Of a DNA stretch of 64,000 bases, positions 602-62,574 are shown in pieces. The stretch comes from a virus, in the IMG/VR virus record IMGVR_UViG_3300025128_000015, positions 96,001 through 160,000 of that record; one strand, written 5' to 3'. Positions within the stretch are counted from its first letter, which is position 1. Each line of letters opens with the position of its first letter. The notes under the pieces are model-generated. The model saw only the letters and a program-made list of their open reading frames with translations, was not told the origin of the DNA and ran no database searches. Both the position numbers and the translations under genes were made by a program.

Positions 602-1666
602 ATGGCCATCGATTTCAAAACATTTAATCAAGTTGCCCCGCATGTCGCGGCAGTCCACAAGCCTGTTCTTCTACGGGGACGCCACGGCGTCGGCAAATCC
701 GAAGTTGTATACCAGCTAGCTGTCCAGCTTGATAAGCCAGTCGTCGAACGACGTGCCTCACAAATGACCGAGGGCGACTTGGTTGGTCTTCCTAAGACCG
801 ATGGGGACGTAACCTCCTTTTGTCCTCCTGATTGGTTTCAGACGGCATGTGATAACGCGGTCGTGCTCTTCTTTGATGAAGTTGACCGTGCTGTCACCGA
901 GGTTCGTCAGGGTCTATTCGAGCTAACAGATTCGCGTAAGCTGTTTGGTAATCATCTCCATCCCGATACTGTCATCGTTGCTGCAATCAACGGCGGCGAC
1001 CACGGTTCACAATATCAGGTTGGCGAGATGGACCCTGCCGAGCTTGACCGATGGACCGTCTTTGATGTCGAGCCTACGATTGAAGATTGGCTTGATTGGG
1101 CGAAGGCTAACGTCGATGGTGTCGTTTGGGACTTTATCAATCAGAATCGATCTCACTTAGAGCATCAGACTGACTTCGAGCCTAACAAGGTTTACCCTTC
1201 TCGTCGCTCTTGGAAACGTCTCAACGACTGCCTAGCACACGCTGGCTTCCTGTCCGATGATGCTGATAAGTCTTCGGTATATCATCTGGCGACTGCATTC
1301 GTCGGCTTCGAGGCTGCTGTGTCCTTCAACGACTTCGTTCAAAACTATGAACGTCAAGTGACCGTTAAGATGATTCTTGATGAGGGCAAGATTAATAAAA
1401 CGTCTAACTTCGGTATCAACGAGCATTGCGCCCTGATTGAGAAAATCGAAGCTAGTGATACTTTCACCACCGTATTAGCAGAAAATCAGGTTCAGAACTT
1501 GGCTAACTACTTCGTAACTTTGCCATCTGAACCCGCGATGAAGCTGTGGACTGCTATCGGCAAGGGTGTAAATGAAAATGTGATTGCACTGCACAAGTCT
1601 AAGGCTGACGATGGCACTAAGATTTCAACTCGCATGGTTACCATGCTTACCGGAAAAAATGAATAG
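602..1666 (+). CDS. MoxR-like AAA+ ATPase
   Basis: Walker A GRHGVGKS, Walker B LFFDEVDR, sensor AAIN, MDPAELDRW, PSRRSW; SD AAGGAG; adjacent vWA partner gene. Confidence 0.9.
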   Translation: MAIDFKTFNQVAPHVAAVHKPVLLRGRHGVGKSEVVYQLAVQLDKPVVERRASQMTEGDLVGLPKTDGDVTSFCPPDWFQTACDNAVVLFFDEVDRAVTEVRQGLFELTDSRKLFGNHLHPDTVIVAAINGGDHGSQYQVGEMDPAELDRWTVFDVEPTIEDWLDWAKANVDGVVWDFINQNRSHLEHQTDFEPNKVYPSRRSWKRLNDCLAHAGFLSDDADKSSVYHLATAFVGFEAAVSFNDFVQNYERQVTVKMILDEGKINKTSNFGINEHCALIEKIEASDTFTTVLAENQVQNLANYFVTLPSEPAMKLWTAIGKGVNENVIALHKSKADDGTKISTRMVTMLTGKNE

Positions 1667-1794
1667 CTATGACTACCATATAATGAAGCCGTTCAACGCC
1701 TGTCCTGAATGGCATAAAACGGAGTAGAAAGCAGGCTGGGCTAGGTTGTCGGCCCGACGAGATGACCCTATTCGTTTTTTTTTCTAAGCACCCC

Positions 1795-1822
1795 TTGACG
1801 ATTGTTGAGGGGTGCTTATCTT
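1795..1822 (+). promoter_or_regulatory. Early/middle promoter family copy (TTGACG-N16-TATCTT)
   Basis: CCCCTTGACG...GGTGCT-TATCTT upstream of 1858. Confidence 0.7.
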
Positions 1823-1857
1823 TCTAGTGTAAGACAACTACTTATTAAGGGAGCATC

Positions 1858-3069
1858 ATGTTCAACCTTAACGATCATATCTTTCGCCTACTTCAAGACG
1901 AACCTTTCTTTGCATCTTTATCGCGCAATGTGGATAAGACAGAAGATTCTAATGTTCCAACGGCCGGAGTGCGTATCAACCCTGATACTGGGTTCTTTGA
2001 GTTGTTATACAACCCTGAGTTCTTCGAGGGCCTAGAGACTGACAAACAACGTGCAGGTGTGCTAGTACATGAGTTTTATCACCTTGTGATGGAACATATT
2101 ATCGGACGCCTTCCTGACGAATTGTCAGGCATCTTTGAGAACCAGGTTGACCCCGAGAAGCAATCGCTTTTTAAATTATACAATATTGCCGCAGATTTAT
2201 CTATCAACTGCCATATTGGACGTGAGAACTTACCTGAGAATGGCTGCTTCCCTGGTCATGGACACTTCGAGGACTTTGAGCCATTCAAGACGGTTGAGTT
2301 TTATTATGAAAAGCTGAAGGAAAAGGCCGAACAAGAGCAGAAAGATGGTAAGACTGAAGGCGGCGTCGGTGATATGGACTCCTTCGATGACCATAGTCAA
2401 TGGGGTGGAAAGGCTTGTGACACAGCGACTAAAGAGATTGCTAAACAGCGATTGACAGAGGCTGTTAAGAAAGCTGCCGAAGATGCATCGAAGTCTAGCT
2501 CATGGGGTTCAGTGTCCGCTTCTATGAAAAAAGAAATTATGGACCGTATCACTCCAGTCTTAGACTGGCGCAAGGTGCTACGTTACTTCGTCAAGTGCTC
2601 TCAGAGGGCTGAAAAACGCTCTACAGTGAAGCGACTCAATAAGCGCTACCCTTACGTCCATCCCGGTCGTAAAGTCCGTAGGCAGGCGAGTATTGCCATC
2701 TCTATCGACCAATCTGGCTCGGTGTCTGACAATATGTTAGCTTCGTTCTATTCTGAACTTAACAAACTAGCTGAAATTGCTACTTTTACCGTCGTACCTT
2801 TTGATACCGAGGTTGCAAAAGACAAGGTGTATGAGTGGCGTAAAGGTGAAAATCGAAAGCGCGAACGTGTCCTGTACGGTGGCACTTGCTTCGATGCTCC
2901 TACTGAGTATGTCAATGCTGGTGGCTTTGATGCTCACATCGTCTTGACCGACATGTGCGCGCCTAAGCCTAAATCTAGCCGATGTCCTCGAATGTGGATG
3001 ACGGACGCGGAAAACGCTCGCCGCCCGTACTTCAAAACTAACGAGCGAGTGATTGCAATAACAAAGTGA
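1858..3069 (+). CDS. Metallopeptidase-like (HExxH) plus vWA-domain protein, MoxR partner (DUF2201-like)
   Basis: HEFYH motif, NIAADLSIN, C-terminal MIDAS SIDQSGS, GGTCF, VLTD. Confidence 0.85.
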   Translation: MFNLNDHIFRLLQDEPFFASLSRNVDKTEDSNVPTAGVRINPDTGFFELLYNPEFFEGLETDKQRAGVLVHEFYHLVMEHIIGRLPDELSGIFENQVDPEKQSLFKLYNIAADLSINCHIGRENLPENGCFPGHGHFEDFEPFKTVEFYYEKLKEKAEQEQKDGKTEGGVGDMDSFDDHSQWGGKACDTATKEIAKQRLTEAVKKAAEDASKSSSWGSVSASMKKEIMDRITPVLDWRKVLRYFVKCSQRAEKRSTVKRLNKRYPYVHPGRKVRRQASIAISIDQSGSVSDNMLASFYSELNKLAEIATFTVVPFDTEVAKDKVYEWRKGENRKRERVLYGGTCFDAPTEYVNAGGFDAHIVLTDMCAPKPKSSRCPRMWMTDAENARRPYFKTNERVIAITK

Positions 3070-4007: not shown

Positions 4008-4409
4008 ATGGGCTATCGCTCCGAAGTCGTTTTAGCAGTTGATTCAAATGTCGCTCCCGCCTTTATGGCTCTGACGGCAAAGCATCCAGAGGTTTTACAA
4101 CTCTGCAACGATGCTGACACCTTCCAATCTGGTTATGAGAATGAGGGCGACTGGTTCATGCACTGGTCACACGTTAAGTGGTACGACAGCTTCACAGAGA
4201 TCGAGATAATAAATAAGTTCATCCATGCACTTGAGATGGAAGACTTGACCGAATACGGCGCGCCCGAACATCCGGTTGATGAAAAAGGCAAAGAGATGGA
4301 TTGGTCCGAATGTTTCAGGTTTGTCAGGATTGGTGAGGAAATGGAAGATATCACAACCGCCGGCTGCGGTTTTTGGAATATTGGCATCAGCCGCCATATT
4401 GATTTTTAG
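4008..4409 (+). CDS. Hypothetical acidic phage protein
   Basis: SD GAGGA; MGYRSEV...W..VKWY...F.RIGEE pattern. Confidence 0.75.
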   Translation: MGYRSEVVLAVDSNVAPAFMALTAKHPEVLQLCNDADTFQSGYENEGDWFMHWSHVKWYDSFTEIEIINKFIHALEMEDLTEYGAPEHPVDEKGKEMDWSECFRFVRIGEEMEDITTAGCGFWNIGISRHIDF

Positions 4410-4420
4410 AGAGGCAGAAA

Positions 4421-4585
4421 ATGAAAGTCGGTGACAAAGTAGAACATATTAACAAGCCTGAATACGGTATCGGCAAGATTGTGAGATTCTACGCGAATCA
4501 AAGCACGGTGCTGGTCGAGTTTCCAGATGATAAAGGCTTGTCTTATTGCGATTATCACTCTTTGGTGAAGAAAAAAAGTCGGTGA
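4421..4585 (+). CDS. MKVGD-family small beta-barrel (KOW/SH3-like) protein 1, 54 aa (not in the ORF track)
   Basis: MKVGDKVEHINKPEYGIGKIV...KKSR*; SD GAGG. Confidence 0.75.
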   Translation: MKVGDKVEHINKPEYGIGKIVRFYANQSTVLVEFPDDKGLSYCDYHSLVKKKSR

Positions 4586-4587
4586 TT

Positions 4588-4668
4588 GTGGAATACTTTA
4601 TTATTAACAACGCAGCTATTGTAATGGTTGTTGGAATGCTTTTGTTTTTCAAAGGAAAAAATAAATGA
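4588..4668 (+). CDS. 26-aa hydrophobic micro-ORF inside the array
   Basis: GTG start, MEYFIINNAAIVMVVGMLLFFKGKNK*, TGA overlaps the next ATG. Confidence 0.45.
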   Translation: MEYFIINNAAIVMVVGMLLFFKGKNK

Positions 4669-4820
4669 AAATCGGTGACTTGGTAAAATATGTAACAGGT
4701 TGCATTAGTGTAGTTTTATATATTAATGATGCTGGTGGGACTGTGAAAGTTGTTAGCAACACCGGAAACATCTGCTGGCTAGTTACTTCTGATTGCGAGG
4801 TTATAAGTGAAAGTCGGTGA
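4665..4820 (+). CDS. MKVGD-family protein 2, 51 aa (not in the ORF track)
   Basis: MKIGDLVKYVTGCISVV...EVISESR*. Confidence 0.75.
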   Translation: MKIGDLVKYVTGCISVVLYINDAGGTVKVVSNTGNICWLVTSDCEVISESR

Positions 4821-4995
4821 TTTAATTGAGTATGATGATGGTTCGGTGGGAATTGTTACAAGCGCACCATATAGTGCATTTAATGGTCAAGTGAGCGTCG
4901 TCAATGTTTTGTGGCAGGGCTCCGACAAGCCGTCAAAGATGGACATAACAGCCATTAAGAGCGGCATTGTGAGGGTGGTTGATGAAAGTCGGTGA
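4807..4995 (+). CDS. MKVGD-family protein 3
   Basis: MKVGDLIEYDDGSVGIV...VVDESR*; 14-nt overlap at both ends. Confidence 0.8.
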   Translation: MKVGDLIEYDDGSVGIVTSAPYSAFNGQVSVVNVLWQGSDKPSKMDITAIKSGIVRVVDESR

Positions 4996-5149
4996 CTTAG
5001 TTAAGCGTGACGCTTGGCCGGCGCATTATTATCAAATCATAGAAATCTATGATAACCAGTACCGCGCAAAAAGGCTGTGTCTCTTGAATTTGACGACTGG
5101 TAGATATGCTACTGATATACAACCGTCACATGTAAAAGTGTTGAGCTAA
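4982..5149 (+). CDS. MKVGD-family protein 4, 55 aa (not in the ORF track)
   Basis: MKVGDLVKRDAWPAHYYQII...VKVLS*; TAATG overlap with the next gene. Confidence 0.75.
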   Translation: MKVGDLVKRDAWPAHYYQIIEIYDNQYRAKRLCLLNLTTGRYATDIQPSHVKVLS

Positions 5150-5349
5150 TGAAGGTCGGTGATTTGGTACAGCTTCAAAGAGGCACGCGGAAACATTGGG
5201 ATCTACCTACAGGTATTGCCCTACTGGTCGAAAAGCTACCGCGAAATGATAGCTTAGAATATGATTGGAAGGTTTTGGTTGATGGTCGTAACATCGAACT
5301 TGGTAGGCAGCTAGAGCAATCGGCGGAGGTCATCAGTGAAAGTCGGTGA
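5149..5349 (+). CDS. MKVGD-family protein 5
   Basis: MKVGDLVQLQ...EVISESR*. Confidence 0.8.
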   Translation: MKVGDLVQLQRGTRKHWDLPTGIALLVEKLPRNDSLEYDWKVLVDGRNIELGRQLEQSAEVISESR

Positions 5350-5506
5350 TTTGATATATCACAAGTGGGGTAAAGACTGTGGCATTGTGGTCGGACGTCC
5401 CGATCCAGCGACACAACCGCCGCCGAACAACTGGTATGTAATGTTCGGCACTAAAAGAGTGATGGTTCATGAGATAAGCTGCGAGGTCTTAAATGAAAGT
5501 CGGTGA
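5336..5506 (+). CDS. MKVGD-family protein 6, 56 aa (not in the ORF track)
   Basis: MKVGDLIYHKWGKDCGIVV...EVLNESR*. Confidence 0.75.
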   Translation: MKVGDLIYHKWGKDCGIVVGRPDPATQPPPNNWYVMFGTKRVMVHEISCEVLNESR

Positions 5507-5648
5507 CTTGGTAAAAGATAAGCTATGGGGAGAGTTGGGCATAGTAGTCTGTGTACCTCCAATGCCTTCTATGATAGAAGTTTGCTGGACTGGAGAAAAG
5601 CCCAGAAGACAAAAGCATCTCTTGGGAGATCTTGAAGTTCTGCGATGA
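5493..5648 (+). CDS. MKVGD-family protein 7, 51 aa (not in the ORF track)
   Basis: MKVGDLVKDKLWGELGIVV...LEVLR*. Confidence 0.75.
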   Translation: MKVGDLVKDKLWGELGIVVCVPPMPSMIEVCWTGEKPRRQKHLLGDLEVLR

Positions 5649-5714
5649 TATTACAGAATTGGTTGGAGAATAAAGTTAAAACAACTATTTATTGTAGTTG
5701 TTAGGAGAACTAAA

Positions 5715-5924
5715 ATGAAAATCACAAAAACACAACTTAAGCAGATTATCAAAGAAGAGTTGGATACTGCTTTAAAGGATCCTCGTACTGACGAACTCGA
5801 AGCCGCTTTAGAAGTATCGTATAATACAAACCTCGATCCAGAAGAAGCAGCGGCTGATATATTAACAGTGGTTGAGGAGTTCCTGTCTGCCAAGCTCGGT
5901 ATGCCCATAGAATTGAGATATTAG
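5715..5924 (+). CDS. Small protein with MKITKTQLKQIIKEE tag (putative virion-internal)
   Basis: Tag shared with the 11.8-20 kb proteins; SD AGGAG; AACTATTTAT motif at 5683. Confidence 0.7.
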   Translation: MKITKTQLKQIIKEELDTALKDPRTDELEAALEVSYNTNLDPEEAAADILTVVEEFLSAKLGMPIELRY

Positions 5925-5936
5925 AACGGAGGCTAA

Positions 5937-6128
5937 ATGAAAGTCGGTGACTTGGTAAAAATAGTTGAATACGCTTCGCGTCATACTCCTCTTGGTACAG
6001 TGGGAATAATCACTAAGAAGCTACCCAAACCCTACCCGCATGAACGTTATCACCAGTGTTATGAGGTCCGCTTCAACAATGGATACACCGGCAATCATGC
6101 TAATTTTTGTTTGGAGCTTTTGAAATAA
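5937..6128 (+). CDS. MKVGD-family protein 8
   Basis: MKVGDLVKIVE...GTVGIIT; SD GGAGG. Confidence 0.8.
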   Translation: MKVGDLVKIVEYASRHTPLGTVGIITKKLPKPYPHERYHQCYEVRFNNGYTGNHANFCLELLK

Positions 6129-6131
6129 TCC

Positions 6132-6159
6132 TTGTCGGCTAGGAAGTTGTTCCTATGTT
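6132..6159 (+). promoter_or_regulatory. Early/middle promoter family copy (TTGTCG-N16-TATGTT)
   Basis: CCTTGTCG...TGTTCC-TATGTT. Confidence 0.7.
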
Positions 6160-6188
6160 TGAGACGTAACAGAGAACAGGAGTTCAAA

Positions 6189-6428
6189 ATGTTGAAAAAG
6201 TTCGTTGTACCAGTGACCTGGATGGTCAGTTCCTACGTTGAGGTTGAAGCCATCGACGAAGACGGAGCAGCCCACGAAGCGATGGGAGTTGATATAGATT
6301 CACTTCCTAATCCTGAGTATGTAAGGTTTAGCTATGAGGTCGATGAACAATCAATCGAAGAAGTGTCATTCGAAGGCACTGAAGCCGGCGACTTTACCAC
6401 CTGGGAAAAGATCCCCGGAGGTTTTTAA
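6189..6428 (+). CDS. Acidic hypothetical protein (start revised to ATG 6189)
   Basis: SD CAGGAG before MLKKFVVPV; the track's TTG 6132 start lies on the promoter. Confidence 0.7.
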   Translation: MLKKFVVPVTWMVSSYVEVEAIDEDGAAHEAMGVDIDSLPNPEYVRFSYEVDEQSIEEVSFEGTEAGDFTTWEKIPGGF

Positions 6429-6430
6429 CA

Positions 6431-6572
6431 TTAAAGGTTCTCGGTGGTGCCTTAGCGGCTTAAAAGGCAACCTTTCAAGTTCTTAGCCTCTCAGATGATC
6501 AAGAGAGTAAGGAAAACGATGAAAGCTAGACCATCGACTCGGAATGGCCCAACGAGCGCCGGGAACCTTTAA
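6431..6572 (+). ncRNA. Candidate structured non-coding RNA
   Basis: 16-bp closing stem 6431-6446/6557-6572 (two G-U pairs) enclosing three hairpin arms; fills the intergenic gap; no family recognised. Confidence 0.45.
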
Positions 6573-6581
6573 TTTTTTCAC

Positions 6582-6609
6582 TTGTCTATTAATAATCCGT
6601 TCCTATGTT
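6582..6609 (+). promoter_or_regulatory. Early/middle promoter family copy (TTGTCT-N16-TATGTT)
   Basis: CTTGTCT...CCGTTCC-TATGTT. Confidence 0.7.
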
Positions 6610-6642
6610 ATAGATGTAACGGGAACAACAGGAGTTGATAAC

Positions 6643-7116
6643 ATGCTTCACGAGAAAGCTGTAAAGAAAGTAGAGAAGGCGCTAGGCGTCAAGGTTGAAC
6701 TTATTGGTAATTGCCGCTATGGTTGTACTTACGATGGACACGTACTGTCTTGGCTAGTTCAGCGAAAGTGGAGGTCAGAGGGCACAAAACTCCTCAAAGA
6801 TGGGCCTCTTGAAGCCTCTAACTGGCACATCCGACGAGAGGATGACCATTCGGATTCGATGGTTGATTACTTTGCTGGTTCGTATCGTGAGAACGTAACG
6901 CAACTGATCAACGCGGTTAGACCGCCTAAACCTAAGTTTCCTGTTGGTTCACTAGTGCAGGGCAAGGAAAATAAAAGGGCTCAACGTCAAGGCTATGCTA
7001 ACCGTCTTGCTATCGTAACCGAGGCAGGCAGATACATGTATTTGAAATGGGTATCAGGTAAAGAGGACCGATATCGTATTAGCTACCCTGAACGAGATTT
7101 TCAGTTGGCAGGGTAA
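6643..7116 (+). CDS. Hypothetical protein with a C-terminal KFPVGSLV SH3/KOW-like segment (start revised to 6643)
   Basis: SD CAGGAG before MLHEKAV. Confidence 0.7.
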   Translation: MLHEKAVKKVEKALGVKVELIGNCRYGCTYDGHVLSWLVQRKWRSEGTKLLKDGPLEASNWHIRREDDHSDSMVDYFAGSYRENVTQLINAVRPPKPKFPVGSLVQGKENKRAQRQGYANRLAIVTEAGRYMYLKWVSGKEDRYRISYPERDFQLAG

Positions 7117-7124
7117 AATAATCC

Positions 7125-7152
7125 TTGTCTACTCAAAAAGCGTGCTTATTGT
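7125..7152 (+). promoter_or_regulatory. Early/middle promoter family copy (TTGTCT-N16-TATTGT)
   Basis: CCTTGTCT...CGTGCT-TATTGT. Confidence 0.65.
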
Positions 7153-7182
7153 TTAGATGTAACGGGAACAACGGAGAAAAAG

Positions 7183-7356
7183 ATGACCCGAAAAGATTTT
7201 CAGATGATTGCAGACGTCGTTAAAATGATTGACGATAAAGACACCCGCCACACGGTTGCGATGAATTTCGCGGTCAAGCTCAAGGATGTGAATCCTCGCT
7301 TTGACATTAACCGTTTCGTTGGAGCGTGTAATAGCCCTATGAAGGCGAAAGCCTAA
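7183..7356 (+). CDS. 57-aa hypothetical phage protein (not in the ORF track)
   Basis: SD GGAG; MTRKDFQMIADVV...NPRFDINRFVGAC. Confidence 0.75.
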   Translation: MTRKDFQMIADVVKMIDDKDTRHTVAMNFAVKLKDVNPRFDINRFVGACNSPMKAKA

Positions 7357-7388
7357 CCGAGAAATTTTTTCCTTGTGAGGTAAATATT

Positions 7389-7595
7389 ATGAAGTATAAC
7401 ATACGAGATTTGGTTACTTTACGCGGACGGCCAGATCCGCTTGGTTTCATCACAAAATTAAAAGGCTCAACAGCTTTTGTTTTATGGTGGCCAACGTCAA
7501 AAAAACCGCAGCACAAGACGTTCTGTGATGTTGAACGCCTGATTGTCATGCAATCGTCACAAGTTAAACGAGGACGTCCCAGGAAAAAGAAGTAA
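7389..7595 (+). CDS. MKVGD-like small beta-barrel protein (MKYNIRDLV)
   Basis: SD GAGG; DLV...LGFIT...VLW pattern as in the array members. Confidence 0.65.
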   Translation: MKYNIRDLVTLRGRPDPLGFITKLKGSTAFVLWWPTSKKPQHKTFCDVERLIVMQSSQVKRGRPRKKK

Positions 7596-7760
7596 TGTAT
7601 CTAAATCGATTAAAAATTAATTTTATAGTGACAGCGAATCAAGCACTTGCACAATCTCGAAGTTCGTCAAGTGGACTCCTTCAGGACTCTGTTGAGTTAG
7701 AACGCTGGCGACAACGCCACACCTTTGAATTCACCAATTATATCAGGAGCTTACGCCACG

Positions 7761-8015
7761 ATGGCTTTTCTTTTTTTAGACGATAATGAGGCCGAGGGTC
7801 TTTTAGCTGCTGCCCGTGAGGGTCAAGCTGCAAAGCTCGAACTCATTGAAAACATTGAAAAAAACTTAAATTCGCCTTGGGCTAGTGCCGAGTATGGCGT
7901 GACAGATCTTCGTCACTTACAGGCGGATTATGGCCGCACATCGCGATTAATCAACGAAATTGAAAAAAGATCAACTTTTTCCCTTGTCGATGATAAATCC
8001 GTTCCTATGTTCTAG
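7761..8015 (+). CDS. Hypothetical protein (start revised to 7761)
   Basis: SD AGGAG at 7745; MAFLFLDDNE. Confidence 0.6.
   Translation: MAFLFLDDNEAEGLLAAAREGQAAKLELIENIEKNLNSPWASAEYGVTDLRHLQADYGRTSRLINEIEKRSTFSLVDDKSVPMF
7984..8011 (+). promoter_or_regulatory. Early/middle promoter family copy (TTGTCG-N16-TATGTT)
   Basis: CCCTTGTCG...CCGTTCC-TATGTT. Confidence 0.7.
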
Positions 8016-8045
8016 GTGTAACAGGAAACAACACGGAGAAATTTC

Positions 8046-8195
8046 ATGTTCAACTGCATTGAAGACATTAAAAACGCTAGCCGTTCCGAGCTAGTTCAAT
8101 ATCTTGAGTCCTGGGGTACAGCTTGCTATGACGACGAGTCAACTAGTTTACTTCGAGACGCTGCCATTGATACCTTTGAAACGGAGGGATGCTAA
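8046..8195 (+). CDS. 49-aa hypothetical protein (not in the ORF track)
   Basis: SD GGAG; MFNCIEDIKNASRSELVQYLESWG. Confidence 0.65.
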   Translation: MFNCIEDIKNASRSELVQYLESWGTACYDDESTSLLRDAAIDTFETEGC

Positions 8196-8196
8196 G

Positions 8197-8403
8197 ATGT
8201 TAACACCTATCGGTGACGAAAGTGAAGATTTTGAACTCAAAGAGGGTTCAGCCTGGATTACAGTCGGAAACATTAGCGTATACATTCGCAAATCCGATGA
8301 AGGCGTTGCAGTTGATTTATTTCCAGTAGGTGGTGAGGCTCAAGAGAATTCTCTAGCCGGAACGTGGGCCACGTTTGCAGAAGCCGCGCCTGACGCGGTG
8401 TGA
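8197..8403 (+). CDS. Hypothetical protein (start revised to 8197)
   Basis: SD GGAGG; MLTPIGDESEDFEL. Confidence 0.65.
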   Translation: MLTPIGDESEDFELKEGSAWITVGNISVYIRKSDEGVAVDLFPVGGEAQENSLAGTWATFAEAAPDAV

Positions 8404-8477
8404 TGTGGTCGTCGCCGCTTATCTTATTGGTTACGCTACCGTCGTCATAGGCGGCGCGTACCTTTTAGCTCGATACT

Positions 8478-8702
8478 TTGACGGAGGTCCAAGTGACTGA
8501 TATTGTTATTAAAAATGTTGATGTTCCCATGTTACGAGAACAGCGTGATGCTGTCCTTAACGTCTTGGATGACATCGACGATATAAAGTCATTCGCTCCT
8601 GACTTTTTTTGCCGCTTGATGACACCGCGCATTGAACGCTTGGAAGGTCTTACCAACCTTCTCGATTCGATGTTAGATAACGCGGAGGGCTTCGGTGATT
8701 GA
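8478..8702 (+). CDS. Hypothetical protein (start probably GTG 8493)
   Basis: SD GGAGG before GTG; helical acidic protein. Confidence 0.6.
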   Translation: MTEVQVTDIVIKNVDVPMLREQRDAVLNVLDDIDDIKSFAPDFFCRLMTPRIERLEGLTNLLDSMLDNAEGFGD

Positions 8703-8833
8703 CATAACGGTTATTGTTTGGCTCGGGCTAACCTTCGGTATTCATTGGGTTTTTGAGAGGCGGCAGAAAAAAGGTAATTATTACCTTTAGTTAGAAAAAA
8801 AGCCGTTCCGAGAATTTTTTTTCATTTTACCCC

Positions 8834-8861
8834 TTGAAAAGTCAAAATCCGTTCTTATATT
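8834..8861 (+). promoter_or_regulatory. Early/middle promoter family copy (TTGAAA-N16-TATATT)
   Basis: T-tract then CATTTTACCCCTTGAAA...CCGTTCT-TATATT. Confidence 0.7.
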
Positions 8862-8895
8862 TAAGGGGTAAGAGACAAACAAAGGAAAAAAAGAC

Positions 8896-9090
8896 ATGAC
8901 GAAAGTTCAAGCCATTCAAGAGTTCAAAAATTACCACCTTCCAAGCGTCAAAGAGCAATACGAGCAGGACGGAAAAAAAGATAGTGGTGCTCGTAGTCAA
9001 GCATGGCATTGGTTCACCGATAGTCTTTGCAAAGGTGGTAACATTACCGAGTCCCAGTATATGCGATGGACAACCCCTAACTTTTGCTAA
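8896..9090 (+). CDS. Hypothetical phage protein
   Basis: SD AAGGA; AW..FTDSLCK.G.ITE.QY..W pattern. Confidence 0.75.
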   Translation: MTKVQAIQEFKNYHLPSVKEQYEQDGKKDSGARSQAWHWFTDSLCKGGNITESQYMRWTTPNFC

Positions 9091-9118
9091 AAAAAGATTA
9101 TTTTTTTCATTTTACCCC

Positions 9119-9146
9119 TTGTCTAGGCGAATTTGGTGCTTATTTT
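9119..9146 (+). promoter_or_regulatory. Early/middle promoter family copy (TTGTCT-N16-TATTTT)
   Basis: Shares TTTTTTTCATTTTACCCCTTG with the 8834 copy. Confidence 0.7.
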
Positions 9147-9267
9147 ATAGGTGTAACAAGAAACCCTAAACCCTAAGAGGTTCATAATGCTTGTTGAAGG
9201 TATTATCGTTTTAAGTATTCAGTTAATTCTTAGCCTAGCTACTTGGCAGTTTCTTGCGAGGTCATAA

Positions 9268-9486
9268 ATGAAAACAGGCGACTTAGTAAAATTAAAGCAA
9301 CCGACGACGAGAGACTTCAAAGAGGTCTTTCTAATTGTCGACACCTTGCAACTCGGTCCAGGCGCTCGCGCTACTTATGGCGAGGAAGGGTCTAATTGGT
9401 TAAAGTTGGAAGGTCGAGAAGGTTGGTATACTAGCGGATGGACACGATCCGCAGATTACGAGGTAGTAAGTGAAAGTGGGCGATAA
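9268..9486 (+). CDS. MKVGD-like protein (MKTGDLVKL)
   Basis: Ends EVVSESGR*, overlapping the next GTG AAA GTG GGC GAT. Confidence 0.75.
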   Translation: MKTGDLVKLKQPTTRDFKEVFLIVDTLQLGPGARATYGEEGSNWLKLEGREGWYTSGWTRSADYEVVSESGR

Positions 9487-9727
9487 GGTAAAACTAGTAG
9501 GCAAGACAAAGCACGGCAAGAATCGTGTACGTGAGCAAGGCCATGATTGGGTCGTTGTAAAGACATCCAACAATTTAGCGTTTGCCGATAACCGCGAACA
9601 AGAGTTCGCACTTTTACGCGCCAAAGAACGGCCTCATGAGCATTGGCGATGGGTCGCCGTACAAAATGATAAGAACTTTCTCGTTGAGGTATTAACCAAT
9701 GATAATGAGAGGTTAGAAGGTGCGTAA
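9470..9727 (+). CDS. MKVGD-family protein (MKVGDKVKL)
   Basis: Same junction logic as the 4.4-5.6 kb array. Confidence 0.75.
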   Translation: MKVGDKVKLVGKTKHGKNRVREQGHDWVVVKTSNNLAFADNREQEFALLRAKERPHEHWRWVAVQNDKNFLVEVLTNDNERLEGA

Positions 9728-9799
9728 AACATTTCGCATATGCCTATATAGGGCGAAAAAGTGCGTAATTTACTTCCCAAGTGCGTAAAAAGTTTCGCA
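9721..9799. promoter_or_regulatory. Three palindromic TGCG-N10-CGCA sites (putative enhancer/UAS)
   Basis: 9721-9738, 9762-9779 (CCCA, 1 mismatch), 9782-9799; inner A-tract/T-tract symmetry. Confidence 0.65.
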
Positions 9800-9844
9800 C
9801 CTAATAGGCTAAAATCGACTATTAGTCGAGGGTCTAAAGTGTCC

Positions 9845-9857
9845 TAAGTCATTGAAT
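9845..9857 (-). promoter_or_regulatory. IHF-like binding site
   Basis: Reverse strand ATTCAATGACTTA vs WATCAANNNNTTR (1 mismatch), lying between the UAS and the -24/-12 box. Confidence 0.5.
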
Positions 9858-9895
9858 TCACTAAAGAATCAAAATAAATGCCCAAAATGGCAAAG

Positions 9896-9912
9896 TTGGC
9901 ACAGGACTTGCA
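9896..9912 (+). promoter_or_regulatory. sigma54 (-24/-12) promoter
   Basis: TTGGCAC-AGGAC-TTGCA matches TGGCAC-N5-TTGCW. Confidence 0.75.
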
Positions 9913-9989
9913 ATATATATAGGTATGAATTCACACTTTGTCGACAGTATAGAAAATCAAAAGAAAGTGAAAAATAATACTTTTACCCC

Positions 9990-10017
9990 TTGTCTGGCCA
10001 ATTCTGGTGCTTACATT
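9990..10017 (+). promoter_or_regulatory. Early/middle promoter family copy (TTGTCT-N16-TACATT) upstream of the sigma gene
   Basis: TTTTACCCCTTGTCT...GGTGCT-TACATT. Confidence 0.7.
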
Positions 10018-10059
10018 ATAGGGGTAAGAGGAAACACTAAAAGCTCAGGAGCTTCAAAT

Positions 10060-10884
10060 ATGCTTAACTCAATCGCAATCTTAGCCGCAACCGTTCAAAT
10101 CCTTAGCCGCGACGAGCAAATCAGTCACGTTGCTGCTTTTCAGAAGACCGGCGATAACCGCGCCATGGATGCACTTATCCGCTCCAATATCCCGCTTGCT
10201 ATCAAGATTGCAAAAAAGCACATCCGCAACGGTGTCGATATCGATGATTTATTGATGGAAGCGATCACCGGCATTATGCGAGCAGCAGAATCTTTTGATT
10301 CTACTTGTGGCGCTTCTTTCACTACATACGCACGTCAATGGATGACGGCAAATTGTCAGCAGTTCGTTCAAGAAAATTGTGGAACGATTCGAGTCGGCTC
10401 CCGTGTCGCTCGCAAGTTGTACGCTTCGCTTCCTCGCTTGCGTCGACAATTCGGCCATGATGTCGACGTCGACACGATTGCACGAGAGCTTGACCTTGAT
10501 GCTAGCGCTGTTGAAGCCGCGCTTCAATTACTTGGCAAACGAGCCGCTAGCTTAAACGCTCCGCTAAATGCCGAGGGTGCAACTGTTGCAAATATTGTAG
10601 CAGATAACAAGATTCTAGCAGAAGAGAAAGTTATACGTTCTGAGAGTAGCCGGAATATTGCCGAGGTTGTAAATATTTTTAAGCAAACGATTAAGAATGA
10701 TCGCGACACTAAAATATTTACACACCGTATTGCTTCCGATTTATTCGAGAACGATAAGATGACAACCGTACAACTTGCTTCTGAATTCAATGTATCTAAG
10801 CAGCGTATTGCTCAGATTGAGAAAGGTATGACTCAGAAGCTACGCAAAGCACTCCAAACGTGTGCAGTAGCAGCCGTAAACTAG
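10060..10884 (+). CDS. RNA polymerase sigma70-family factor, RpoH/sigma32-like (start revised from 9925 to 10060)
   Basis: Region 2 SNIPLAIKIAKK...DDLLMEAITGIMRAAESFD...SFTTYARQW; RpoH-box-like ARKLYASL; region 3 SLNAPL; region 4 HTH QLASEFNVSKQRIAQIE; SD CAGGAG. Confidence 0.9.
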   Translation: MLNSIAILAATVQILSRDEQISHVAAFQKTGDNRAMDALIRSNIPLAIKIAKKHIRNGVDIDDLLMEAITGIMRAAESFDSTCGASFTTYARQWMTANCQQFVQENCGTIRVGSRVARKLYASLPRLRRQFGHDVDVDTIARELDLDASAVEAALQLLGKRAASLNAPLNAEGATVANIVADNKILAEEKVIRSESSRNIAEVVNIFKQTIKNDRDTKIFTHRIASDLFENDKMTTVQLASEFNVSKQRIAQIEKGMTQKLRKALQTCAVAAVN

Positions 10885-61688: not shown

Positions 61689-62574
61689 ATGCTTAGTAAC
61701 CGGCCATAAGGGCTATATTGGCGCCCATTTGGTGAAAAAATTAGAAGAATTAGGACACGAAGTTTTAGGTATCGACCTTCAAGGTGAAAATGGTAAGGAT
61801 ATCAACAGCTTACAAGGTTTAATAGAAGATGAAACCGGCAAATTTCACCCTCATTATTGGAATTTTAAGCCAGAATATGTATTTCATATGGCATGTTTTC
61901 CAAGAGTTGCGTACAGTGTTGAAAATCCAGTATTAACAATGAAGAACAACGTTATGGTTGGTGCACATGTACTTAATTTTGCCAGAAAAGTTGGTGCTAA
62001 AAGAGTTATTTATTCTAGTTCATCATCAATCTCTGGTAATGGACGAGGACCGGAAAGTCCTTATGCTCTTCAAAAGATGGTTACAGAGCTAGAATGTAAG
62101 CTATACAATCAATTGTATGGGCTTGATACTGTTTCACTAAGATATTTTAACGTATACTCAGAAGATCAAGAAACTAACGGCTCGTATGGCACAGCAATTG
62201 CCAATTGGATGCAAGCCATACGAGATAATACAGTGCCTTATATTACAGGAGATGGTGAGCAAAGAAGAGATATGGTTCACGTAGATGATGTGGTGTCTGC
62301 AAATATTTTTGCAATGAATTTTGATAGTTATAATTTCTGTGGAGAGATTTACGATATCGGCACCGGTCAAAATATTTCTTTGAATGAAATTAAAAATATT
62401 GTTAATAAACACCACCCAAAAATTACATTTGATTATGTTGAGCCAAGACCTGGAGACGTTGCTAGAACAAAGGCAGGCATTCGCAAACTAAAAAACATTG
62501 GTTGGTCTGCAGCCATATCTATTGAAGATGGTATTGATAGTTGTTTTAAGGAGCTTAAGAATGAATTATCCTAG
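61681..62574 (+). CDS. NAD-dependent epimerase/dehydratase
   Basis: TGHKGYIG, SSS, YALQK, LRYFNVY, GDGEQRRD. Confidence 0.92.
   Translation: MARCLVTGHKGYIGAHLVKKLEELGHEVLGIDLQGENGKDINSLQGLIEDETGKFHPHYWNFKPEYVFHMACFPRVAYSVENPVLTMKNNVMVGAHVLNFARKVGAKRVIYSSSSSISGNGRGPESPYALQKMVTELECKLYNQLYGLDTVSLRYFNVYSEDQETNGSYGTAIANWMQAIRDNTVPYITGDGEQRRDMVHVDDVVSANIFAMNFDSYNFCGEIYDIGTGQNISLNEIKNIVNKHHPKITFDYVEPRPGDVARTKAGIRKLKNIGWSAAISIEDGIDSCFKELKNELS

What the first reader, a model, noticed from the sequence alone, without database searches (positions are those of the whole stretch)
9721..10884. Phage sigma32-like gene wired to a complete host sigma54 enhancer promoter plus its own promoter class: a signal-gated switch
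Seen: three TGCG-N10-CGCA palindromes (9721, 9762, 9782; spacings 41 and 20 bp, about 4 and 2 helical turns), an IHF-like site (9845), TTGGCAC-N5-TTGCA (9896-9912), then a copy of the early promoter family (9990) and an RpoH-like sigma gene. Established: sigma54 promoters need a bacterial enhancer-binding protein at palindromic UAS about 100-200 bp upstream, often with IHF looping, and myxobacteria use many EBPs for starvation and development. Inference: the phage reads a host EBP signal to fire its sigma, which then amplifies itself and turns on the 0.5-10 kb genes, coupling the infection programme to host physiology.
Basis: partly seen in the sequence, partly recalled or inferred. Interest (0 to 1): 0.88.

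Follow-up and report, generated by a model that had tools for sequence, protein, structure and literature searches.

The report
Host sigma-54 enhancer promoter driving phage sigma gene
A 190-kb uncultured marine phage, and most of its relatives, place a complete bacterial sigma-54 promoter (activator sites, IHF-like bend site, -24/-12 core) in front of their own sigma-factor gene, so this step of infection probably depends on a host activator protein, a strategy so far known in very few phages.

Summary
An exact TTGGCAC-N5-TTGCA lies at 9896-9912 in the gap before a sigma70-family gene (10060-10884). Three GTGCGTAA repeats start at 9720, 9761 and 9781; only the first and third are full TGCG-N10-CGCA palindromes. 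An IHF-like site sits at 9845-9857.

The evidence is comparative:
- Among sigma lineages found by protein similarity alone, 11 of 15 carry the same core within 350 bp upstream. The N5 spacer varies and the GG/GC spacing is fixed.
- A core-only scan of IMG/VR gave 9 contigs, and 6 have the sigma gene just downstream.
- In two complete relatives the core occurs once and twice per ~180 kb.
- The palindromes keep fixed distances to the core.
- The same palindrome class precedes sigma-54 cores in Myxococcota-type bacteria.
- The phages encode no sigma-54, no activator and no IHF/HU.

Not settled: the host, the activator and its signal, the RNA start sites, and who reads the second ("family") promoter at 9990. 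No terminator shields the gene from upstream read-through, so "switch" may overstate it.

Host sigma-54 use is known for Pseudomonas phage YuA, and E. coli rpoE has a QseF/sigma-54 promoter. This scan has noted sigma-54-type promoters in other phage DNA before. I class it as a new variant of a known kind.

The parts
9720..9739 (.). Upstream activator-type site 1: a TGCG-N10-CGCA palindrome that overlaps the stop codon of ORF 9470-9727. It starts 176 bp before the TGGCA of the core.
   Evidence: It sits at the same distance in L001, L003 and L020, where it reads TGTG..CACA or TGCG..CGCA.
9761..9780 (.). Upstream site 2, degenerate (TGCG-N10-CCCA). It starts 135 bp before the core.
   Evidence: The 135-bp position is shared by three clades (window group, L007/L009/L015/L021, and L023 at 134). 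The same degenerate-plus-perfect composite occurs in bacterial locus L029.
9781..9800 (.). Upstream site 3, a perfect TGCG-N10-CGCA palindrome. It starts 115 bp before the core.
9845..9857 (-). IHF-like site: YAA-N4-TTGAW, the reverse complement of WATCAANNNNTTR with one mismatch.
   Evidence: TAA and TTGAA are invariant in close relatives while the spacer varies. Equivalent sites occur in L007, L009, L015, L021 and L020.
9896..9912 (+). Sigma-54-type core promoter TTGGCAC-N5-TTGCA (GG at -25/-24, GC at -13/-12).
9913..9923 (+). Conserved 8-10 bp A/T run ending in GG. The RNA start is predicted at about 9922-9923.
   Evidence: the run and the GG are conserved even in a relative with 59% G+C (L026). 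The start site is inferred from the usual sigma-54 geometry and was not measured.
9988..10022 (+). Second promoter, a copy of the local 'family' promoter: TTGTCT 9990-9995, a 16-nt spacer, TACATT 10012-10017, then TATAGG.
   Evidence: It sits in the same place in L020, L018, L009, L015 and L021. It is absent in L001-L003, L007, L023, L024, L026 and L103.
10060..10884 (+). Phage sigma70-family (RpoH/RpoS-like) sigma factor gene, 274 aa, with GGAG at 10048-10051.

Best explanation
The 333-bp gap before the phage sigma gene holds a working enhancer-dependent promoter read by the host's sigma-54 RNA polymerase.

Proposed steps:
1. The host sigma-54 holoenzyme binds TTGGCAC-N5-TTGCA (9896-9912) as a closed complex.
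2. A host NtrC-family activator (EBP) binds the three 18-20-bp sites TGYGTAA-N4-TTNCRCA, which start 176, 135 and 115 bp upstream of the core.
3. An IHF-type protein bends the DNA at 9845-9857, bringing activator and polymerase together.
4. ATP hydrolysis by the activator opens the A/T run, and RNA starts near 9922-9923.
5. The transcript encodes the phage's only sigma70-family factor, which then redirects core polymerase to phage promoters.

In this phage and in about half of the relatives, a second promoter of the local 'family' type (9988-10022) sits between the sigma-54 start and the gene, so the gene has two inputs.

Shown here: the sequence elements, their geometry, their conservation and near-exclusive link to the sigma gene, and the lack of phage-encoded sigma-54, EBP or IHF.

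Inferred: that sigma-54 and an EBP really act here, which EBP it is, what activates it, and what the phage sigma reads.

The layout is closest to the GlrR/QseF-controlled glmY, glmZ and rpoE promoters of enterobacteria.
For: 1. Chance is excluded. An exact core occurs 2 times against 0.05 expected in the window. Three of the genome's four GTGCGTAA copies lie within 62 bp.

2. Conservation with the right signature. In relatives found through the sigma protein alone, the core is present while the N5 spacer differs (AGGAC, GCCGA, GCGAC, GCAGC, GGAAC) and the GG/GC spacing never changes. These relatives are L001-3, L007/8 (two tandem modules), L009/10, L015-17, L102-105, L107 and L109. In total 11 of 15 sigma lineages with at least 41% identity have it within 350 bp upstream.

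3. The converse test. Scanning IMG/VR with the core alone gave 9 contigs, against roughly 0.2 expected by my own estimate. Six have the sigma homologue (35-77% identity) directly downstream.

4. Exclusivity. The relaxed core occurs once in the complete 185.5-kb relative G001 and twice in the complete 180.7-kb relative G005. In this genome it occurs once in intergenic DNA.

5. Enhancer sites. TGYG-N10-CRCA sites are about 10-fold denser in the 260 bp upstream of the cores than in the rest of the loci. They sit at fixed distances: 176/135/115, 135/83/59 and 157/134/112 bp.

6. Bacterial counterpart. The pattern GTGCGNA-N6-TNCGCAC, then 70-100 nt, then a sigma-54 core gave 66 hits in bacterial genomes. 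Of these, 33 fall before just three gene families. L029 carries the same degenerate-plus-perfect composite as window 9760-9801.

7. Host dependence. The phage and two complete relatives have no PF00158, PF04552, PF04963, PF00216 or GAFTGA protein.

8. Precedent. Development of phage YuA depends on host sigma-54 (PMC5053324, PMC10914365). GlrR binds three TGTC-N10-GACA sites more than 100 bp upstream of sigma-54 promoters, with IHF sites flanking the proximal one (PMC3045617). QseF activates rpoE from a sigma-54 promoter (PMC6075780 abstract).
Against:
- The host is unknown, so it is not shown that it has rpoN, a matching EBP or IHF.
- Four sigma lineages (L005/6, L011-13, L014, L106) do without the module.
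- No terminator-like site lies between the upstream family promoters and the sigma gene, so the gene may be expressed by read-through whatever sigma-54 does.
- The A/T run plus GG after the -12 element is far more conserved than in ordinary sigma-54 promoters, and this is not explained.
- Loci L018-L026 were retrieved with the core as the query, so their cores are not independent evidence. Only their downstream genes and upstream sites are.
- The bacterial hits are all G+C-rich (48-76%), unlike this phage, and the search pattern favours such genomes.
Confidence: 0.7

Rival explanations
1. The core is a true sigma-54 promoter, but the palindromes are operators for a phage-encoded or other non-EBP regulator (a repressor or timing protein). 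Activation would then come from an EBP acting from solution, or from other sites.
For: A half-site-like TTCRCAC recurs just downstream of the predicted start in several lineages: window, L018, and L009/L015/L021. Enhancer types differ between lineages that share the same core (L026, L103). No EBP gene lies next to the similar bacterial sites.
Against: The sites have the size, dyad symmetry, number, phasing and distance (about 75-190 bp upstream of the start) typical of EBP sites. The same palindrome class sits 70-100 bp before sigma-54 cores in bacteria that carry no phage. A change of enhancer type between lineages is also what a change of host EBP would produce.
Confidence: 0.13
2. The region is not a promoter. 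It would be another cis element built from repeats, an IHF site and an A/T stretch, such as a replication origin or a packaging or partition site, and its likeness to the sigma-54 consensus would be incidental.
For: Iteron-like repeats, an IHF-like site and an A/T run also make up origin and cos/pac regions. Contig G005, which has direct terminal repeats, begins 60 bp upstream of the core.
Against: This gives no reason for an exact GG-N10-GC consensus with a free spacer to be kept across lineages of 41-59% G+C. It does not explain why the element always points at, and lies within 350 bp of, the sigma gene, or why L007 has it twice in tandem. The A/T run is only 8-10 bp. Cumulative GC skew shows no turning point here.
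Confidence: 0.07
3. The conserved block is read by a sigma70-family factor (host sigma70, or the phage sigma itself), with TTGGCA as the -35 element and the TA run as the -10 element.
For: TTGGCA matches TTGACA at 5 of 6 positions. Overlapping sigma70 and sigma-54 promoters exist at E. coli glmY (PMC3045617). TATAGG is shared with the start region of the family promoters.
Against: With a 16-18-nt spacer the second hexamer would be TATAGG, ATAGGT or TAGGGT, and it shifts between lineages. An alternating TA run can never have both A at position 2 and T at position 6 of a -10 hexamer. The generic sigma70 scan did not report this site. The positions that are invariant (GG, GC and their 10-nt spacing) are those sigma-54 reads.
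Confidence: 0.05

Closest known systems
GlrR/QseF-dependent sigma-54 promoters of enterobacterial glmY, glmZ and rpoE (PMC3045617; PMC6075780)
   Same: Both have three 18-bp activator sites of the form TGTN-N10-NACA more than 100 bp upstream. Both have IHF sites beside the promoter-proximal activator site; in L007/L009/L015/L021 two IHF-like sites flank the site that starts 83 bp before the core. Both have a consensus -24/-12 core. At rpoE the product is an alternative sigma70-family factor, giving the same two-step sigma-54-to-sigma cascade. glmY also combines the sigma-54 promoter with a second promoter.
   Different: The half-site is TGYG, not TGTC, so it is not the GlrR consensus. The element is on a virus and drives a viral sigma gene. 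The second promoter lies about 100 bp downstream rather than overlapping. No activator has been identified. The likeness is one of layout and was not tested by binding.
Pseudomonas aeruginosa phage YuA (Ceyssens et al. 2008, as cited in PMC5053324 and PMC10914365)
   Same: A phage whose programme uses host sigma-54. YuA has a sigma-54-like promoter with promoter-trap and cappable-seq support.
   Different: YuA is a siphovirus of a cultured host. From the texts I could read, no UAS/IHF enhancer and no phage sigma gene downstream are described for it. The original paper was not held, so this comparison is incomplete.
Phage sigma cascades (for example B. subtilis SPO1 gp28 followed by gp33/34)
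   Same: A phage-encoded sigma made early takes over host core polymerase for the next gene class.
   Different: In those textbook cases (from general knowledge, not tested here) the first sigma gene is read by the host's primary sigma. Here the input is an enhancer-dependent, signal-responsive holoenzyme.
Sigma-54-type promoters noted by this scan in other uncultured phages (e1-3274259, e1-3506070, e1-3422794, e1-5676631)
   Same: Near-consensus -24/-12 cores in phage DNA with no phage activator gene. One note describes TGYGRC-N6-NYCRCA dyads with IHF sites in tandem units, much like L007.
   Different: Those notes describe cores that head blocks of small early or accessory genes. Here a single module per genome is tied to the sigma gene. 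They are AI notes and I did not re-test them.

Membership tests
Sigma-54 (RpoN)-dependent -24/-12 promoter | GG and GC dinucleotides exactly 10 nt apart within TGGCAC-N5-TTGCW | tested here: met
   9897-9912 is an exact match. The same holds in 13 modules from relatives.
Sigma-54 (RpoN)-dependent -24/-12 promoter | The recognised positions are conserved in relatives while the spacer is free | tested here: met
   Among protein-ascertained lineages, 11 of 15 are positive.
Sigma-54 (RpoN)-dependent -24/-12 promoter | Intergenic, and on the same strand as a downstream gene | tested here: met
   It lies in the gap 9728-10059 and points at the sigma gene.
Sigma-54 (RpoN)-dependent -24/-12 promoter | Transcription start about 12 nt after the GC, dependent on rpoN | not testable with these tools
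Enhancer-dependent promoter (EBP sites plus IHF) | Dyad-symmetric activator sites about 80-200 bp upstream, usually two or more and helically phased | tested here: met
   There are three sites, starting 176, 135 and 115 bp before the core. They are 10-fold enriched and positionally conserved.
Enhancer-dependent promoter (EBP sites plus IHF) | An IHF consensus (WATCAANNNNTTR) between the enhancer and the core | tested here: inconclusive
   There is one mismatch at 9845-9857. L007 has an exact match, and conservation fits the consensus positions. Such motifs are common in A/T-rich DNA, and binding was not tested.
Enhancer-dependent promoter (EBP sites plus IHF) | A cognate AAA+ activator with a GAFTGA loop is available | tested here: not met
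   None is encoded in the phage or in two complete relatives. It would have to come from the host, which cannot be tested.
GlrR/QseF regulon | TGTC-N10-GACA binding sites | tested here: not met
   The sites read TGYG-N10-CRCA, so the fourth base differs. The layout is the same, but I do not claim membership.
RpoH (sigma-32) | Score above the equivalog cut-off of TIGR02392 or NF005143 | tested here: not met
   The scores are 112-114 bits against cut-offs of 241-323, and RpoS models score nearly the same. It is a sigma70-family factor with region 2 above the Pfam cut-off and region 4 just below it, and only loosely RpoH-like.

The most novel reading that the evidence does not exclude
This widespread group of marine phages of about 180-190 kb uses the host's sigma-54 machinery as the trigger of its own sigma cascade, and swaps the enhancer to match whichever activator each host offers. 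The core is the same across lineages, but three enhancer types were seen: TGYGTAA-N4-TTNCRCA, TTTGCATGG..CCATGCAAA and TGCAA-N3-TTGCA. The activator would be one that infection itself switches on, for example an envelope-stress or QseF/PspF-like regulator. In that case the phage would time its early-to-middle switch by sensing the damage it causes.
Probability: 0.2. Interest if true: 0.85.

Novelty: new variant of a known kind. Interest (0 to 1): 0.68.

Why it matters
Phage gene timing is usually explained by host sigma70 followed by phage-made factors. Here, a whole group of abundant, uncultured ocean phages appears to put the gene for its own sigma factor under an enhancer-dependent promoter. 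Such a promoter stays silent unless a host signalling protein is active.

If this is confirmed:
- It would show that large lytic-type phages can couple their programme to host physiology or stress through sigma-54.
- It would extend the single cultured precedent (YuA) to the marine virosphere.
- It would give a sequence handle, the enhancer motif, for predicting hosts and the host regulon being copied.
- The conserved core with exchangeable enhancers would be a natural example of modular rewiring of promoters.

Tried and rejected
- Nucleotide search of cultured phages (INPHARED): no match. A tblastn search gave only distant sigma genes below 30% identity, so there is no cultured relative or host.
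- A first IMG/VR scan with the single protein found nothing. An alignment-based scan worked.
- The locus for P0008 had no retrievable DNA.
- BLAST of the phage tmRNA against five bacterial genomes gave only short end matches and says nothing about the host.
- The AAA_5 protein at 602-1666 gave a weak PF00158 hit (E = 0.017, Walker A region only). It is MoxR/CobS-like, has no GAFTGA, and is paired with a DUF2201/VWA protein, so I rejected it as an EBP.
- The second exact core at 62187 was rejected as coding-sequence chance.
- The 319-aa ORF starting at 9925 was rejected. That frame is closed or shifted in L020 and L018 (my reading of the sequences printed), and all relatives start at the MLNS/MT.. 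position behind a GGAG.
- My first reading, that 9931-10043 is an insertion in the window, was revised. L020 and L018 share the segment, and the tree places L020 outside the group of window, L001 and L003, so loss in L001 and L003 is more likely.
- No EBP gene lies next to the similar bacterial sites, so the activator could not be named.
- The YuA paper itself is not held.
Full report
**What the window is.** The window is bases 96001-160000 of a 189,594-bp IMG/VR virus record rated complete. Its G+C content is 33-46% and nearly all long ORFs are on the + strand. It has no close cultured relative. Homologues of its sigma protein come from marine metagenomes, including Tara and JGI marine samples.

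**The observation.** The gap 9728-10059 lies between a small ORF (9470-9727) and a 274-aa sigma70-family gene (10060-10884). The gene matches Pfam Sigma70_r2 and, just below its cut-off, r4. RpoH models score best but far below their cut-offs, and RpoS models score almost the same. The gap contains:
- TTGGCAC-AGGAC-TTGCA at 9896-9912;
- three GTGCGTAA repeats starting at 9720, 9761 and 9781;
- a TAA-N4-TTGAAT element at 9845-9857;
- a copy of a local promoter family at 9988-10022.

The exact core occurs twice in the window against 0.05 expected. The other copy, at 62187, is inside a coding frame. GCGTAA-type repeats are rare: GTGCGTAA occurs four times in the whole genome, three of them here. 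One correction is needed: the middle repeat is not a palindrome, since its right half reads CCCA.

**Is it conserved?** I retrieved relatives in two independent ways.

*Through the sigma protein*:
- The closest relatives (L001/L002, L003; 86-89% identity) keep the core, its flanks, the three repeats and the TAA/TTGAA element. The N5 spacer and the 4-nt spacer of the IHF-like site differ.
- At 51-53% identity the core is still there. L007/L008 even has two tandem modules, 254 and 63 bp before the sigma start. The core lies 347 bp before the start in L009/10, 246 bp in L015-17 and 66 bp in L103.
- In total, 11 of 15 lineages with at least 41% sigma identity carry the core within 350 bp upstream.
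- L005/6, L011-13, L014 and L106 lack it. They have a sigma70-like promoter or only the family promoter.

*Through the core alone.* An IMG/VR scan with the core plus the A/T run returned nine contigs. Six encode a sigma homologue (35-77% identity) immediately downstream, in genomes of 41-59% G+C.

A maximum-likelihood tree places the positive lineages in at least three well-separated groups, plus the long-branch L018 whose position is uncertain.

In the complete relatives G001 (185.5 kb) and G005 (180.7 kb), a relaxed core pattern occurs once and twice. In both genomes one of these matches is the core upstream of the sigma gene. The element is therefore a near-unique feature of these genomes, dedicated to the sigma gene.

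**The enhancer.** Sites of the form TGYG-N10-CRCA (fuller consensus GTGCGTAA-N4-TTACGCAC) are about tenfold denser in the 260 bp upstream of the cores than elsewhere in the loci. They keep fixed distances to the core:
- 176/135/115 bp in the window group;
- 135/83/59 bp in L007/L009/L015/L021;
- 157/134/112 bp in L023.

Half-sites switch between TGCG and TGTG, both within and between phages. Two lineages with the same core carry other dyads instead: L026 has TTTGCATGG..CCATGCAAA and L103 has TGCAA-N3-TTGCA. This is what a change of activator would look like.

**A bacterial counterpart.** I scanned one genome per bacterial species for GTGCGNA-N6-TNCGCAC followed 70-100 nt later by a sigma-54 core. 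This gave 66 loci, mostly Myxococcota or 'Deltaproteobacteria' MAGs. They are not random:
- 20 precede one family of proteins of about 60 aa;
- 10 precede a DAGK_cat/YegS-type kinase;
- 3 precede a CDP-alcohol phosphatidyltransferase.

Most of these sites have the extended form GGTGCG..CGCACC, as in the G+C-richer phages. L029 has the same degenerate-plus-perfect double site, 20 bp apart, as window 9760-9801. So this dyad class is used next to sigma-54 promoters in real bacteria. This supports its reading as an activator site.

It does not identify the host. The search pattern favours G+C-rich genomes, and no EBP gene is adjacent to these sites.

**Who supplies the proteins?** The phage genome has no sigma-54 domains, no sigma-54 activator domain, no GAFTGA protein and no HU/IHF. 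Two complete relatives also lack an activator. The only AAA+ candidate (602-1666) is a MoxR/CobS-like AAA_5 protein paired with a DUF2201/VWA protein. All trans-acting parts must therefore be the host's.

**The second promoter.** The family (CCCTTGTC, then GTTCYTAT, then TAGGTGTAAC) has nine strict copies, all between window -151 and 9988, so all lie in the block of small genes that ends at the sigma gene.

The copy at 9988 is shared with L020, L018, L009, L015 and L021. It is missing in L001-3, L007, L023, L024, L026 and L103. Given the tree, loss in L001 and L003 is more likely than gain in the window.

The motif fits sigma70 (TTGTCT, 16 nt, TAYNNT). It also fits sigma32 (CCCTTGAA-like -35, CCTATNT-like -10). 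Its extended conservation in phages of very different G+C content hints at a phage-specific reader, possibly the phage sigma itself. Against that, it is the only promoter before sigma in lineages without the sigma-54 module, which argues that a host factor can read it. I leave this open, at roughly even odds.

No terminator-like site lies upstream of the sigma gene, so read-through from the family promoters is possible. The word 'gate' is therefore not justified by sequence alone.

**Comparison with what is known.**
- Host sigma-54 use by a phage is rare but documented for P. aeruginosa phage YuA (PMC5053324; PMC10914365).
- The architecture here most resembles the enterobacterial glmY/glmZ promoters: three GlrR sites TGTC-N10-GACA more than 100 bp upstream, IHF sites flanking the proximal one, and a sigma-54 core, sometimes combined with a second promoter (PMC3045617).
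- The same activator, QseF, also fires the sigma gene rpoE from a sigma-54 promoter (PMC6075780 abstract). That is the same two-step logic.
- The phage sites differ at the fourth base of the half-site, so I claim no membership of that regulon.
- This scan has also noted sigma-54-type promoters in several other uncultured phages. Those notes gave me the YuA lead, which I checked in the two papers above.

**Verdict.** The sigma-54/EBP/IHF reading is the best explanation, at about 0.7. The 'self-amplifying switch coupled to host physiology' is a reasonable but untested extension. The host and the activator are unknown.

Noticed in passing
window 35938-36288 (+): The phage carries a one-piece tmRNA gene (Rfam RF00023, 114.8 bits) with the tag peptide ANNNVAFDYALAA.
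   Followed up: partly
L025:6990-7215: Another IMG/VR phage contig has the same sigma-54 core. It is preceded by three NtrC-like sites (TGCACC-N5-AGTGCR) and followed by small phage genes, with no sigma gene. This may be a nitrogen-regulated phage promoter.
   Followed up: no
L022:9620-9920: An A/T-rich phage contig has three sigma-54-type cores within 180 bp and repeated TGAGAA..TTCTCA dyads upstream of a 194-aa ORF.
   Followed up: no
L007:4640-4730; L009:4545-4640; L015:2650-2745: Two IHF-like sites form a long inverted repeat (TTCAAsrGGTTAG / CTAACCysTTGAA) around the activator site that starts 83 bp before the core. The changes between lineages are complementary. This is more constraint than two independent IHF sites would need, and it is unexplained.
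   Followed up: partly
L069, L089, L073, L084 and 16 other bacterial loci: A conserved protein family of about 60 aa (..RNRxVARSFYRQLRxEGFTHEQIIELSxTLLDLVTEDL..), with no Pfam match, sits behind GGTGCGWA-N6-TWCGCACC plus a sigma-54 core in Myxococcota-type MAGs. A YegS-like kinase and a CDP-alcohol phosphatidyltransferase have the same control region, which suggests one undescribed regulon.
   Followed up: partly
window 9917-9923 and 10017-10022, and the other family promoter copies: TATAGG lies at the predicted start region of both the sigma-54 promoter and the family promoters, and GTAAC or GTAAG follows it in most family copies and in L001/L003. Transcripts from the two promoter classes may therefore begin with a similar sequence.
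   Followed up: no
window 602-3069: An AAA_5 (MoxR/CobS-like) ATPase is followed by a DUF2201 metallopeptidase/VWA protein. The DUF2201 protein (and in L095/L096 the ATPase) is also seen upstream of the small-gene array in relatives such as L005 and L011.
   Followed up: no
window 4408-9500: This is an array of small genes starting MK(V/I)GD with a repeated junction sequence (families D1 and D6). Other first-stage notes also flagged it.
   Followed up: no
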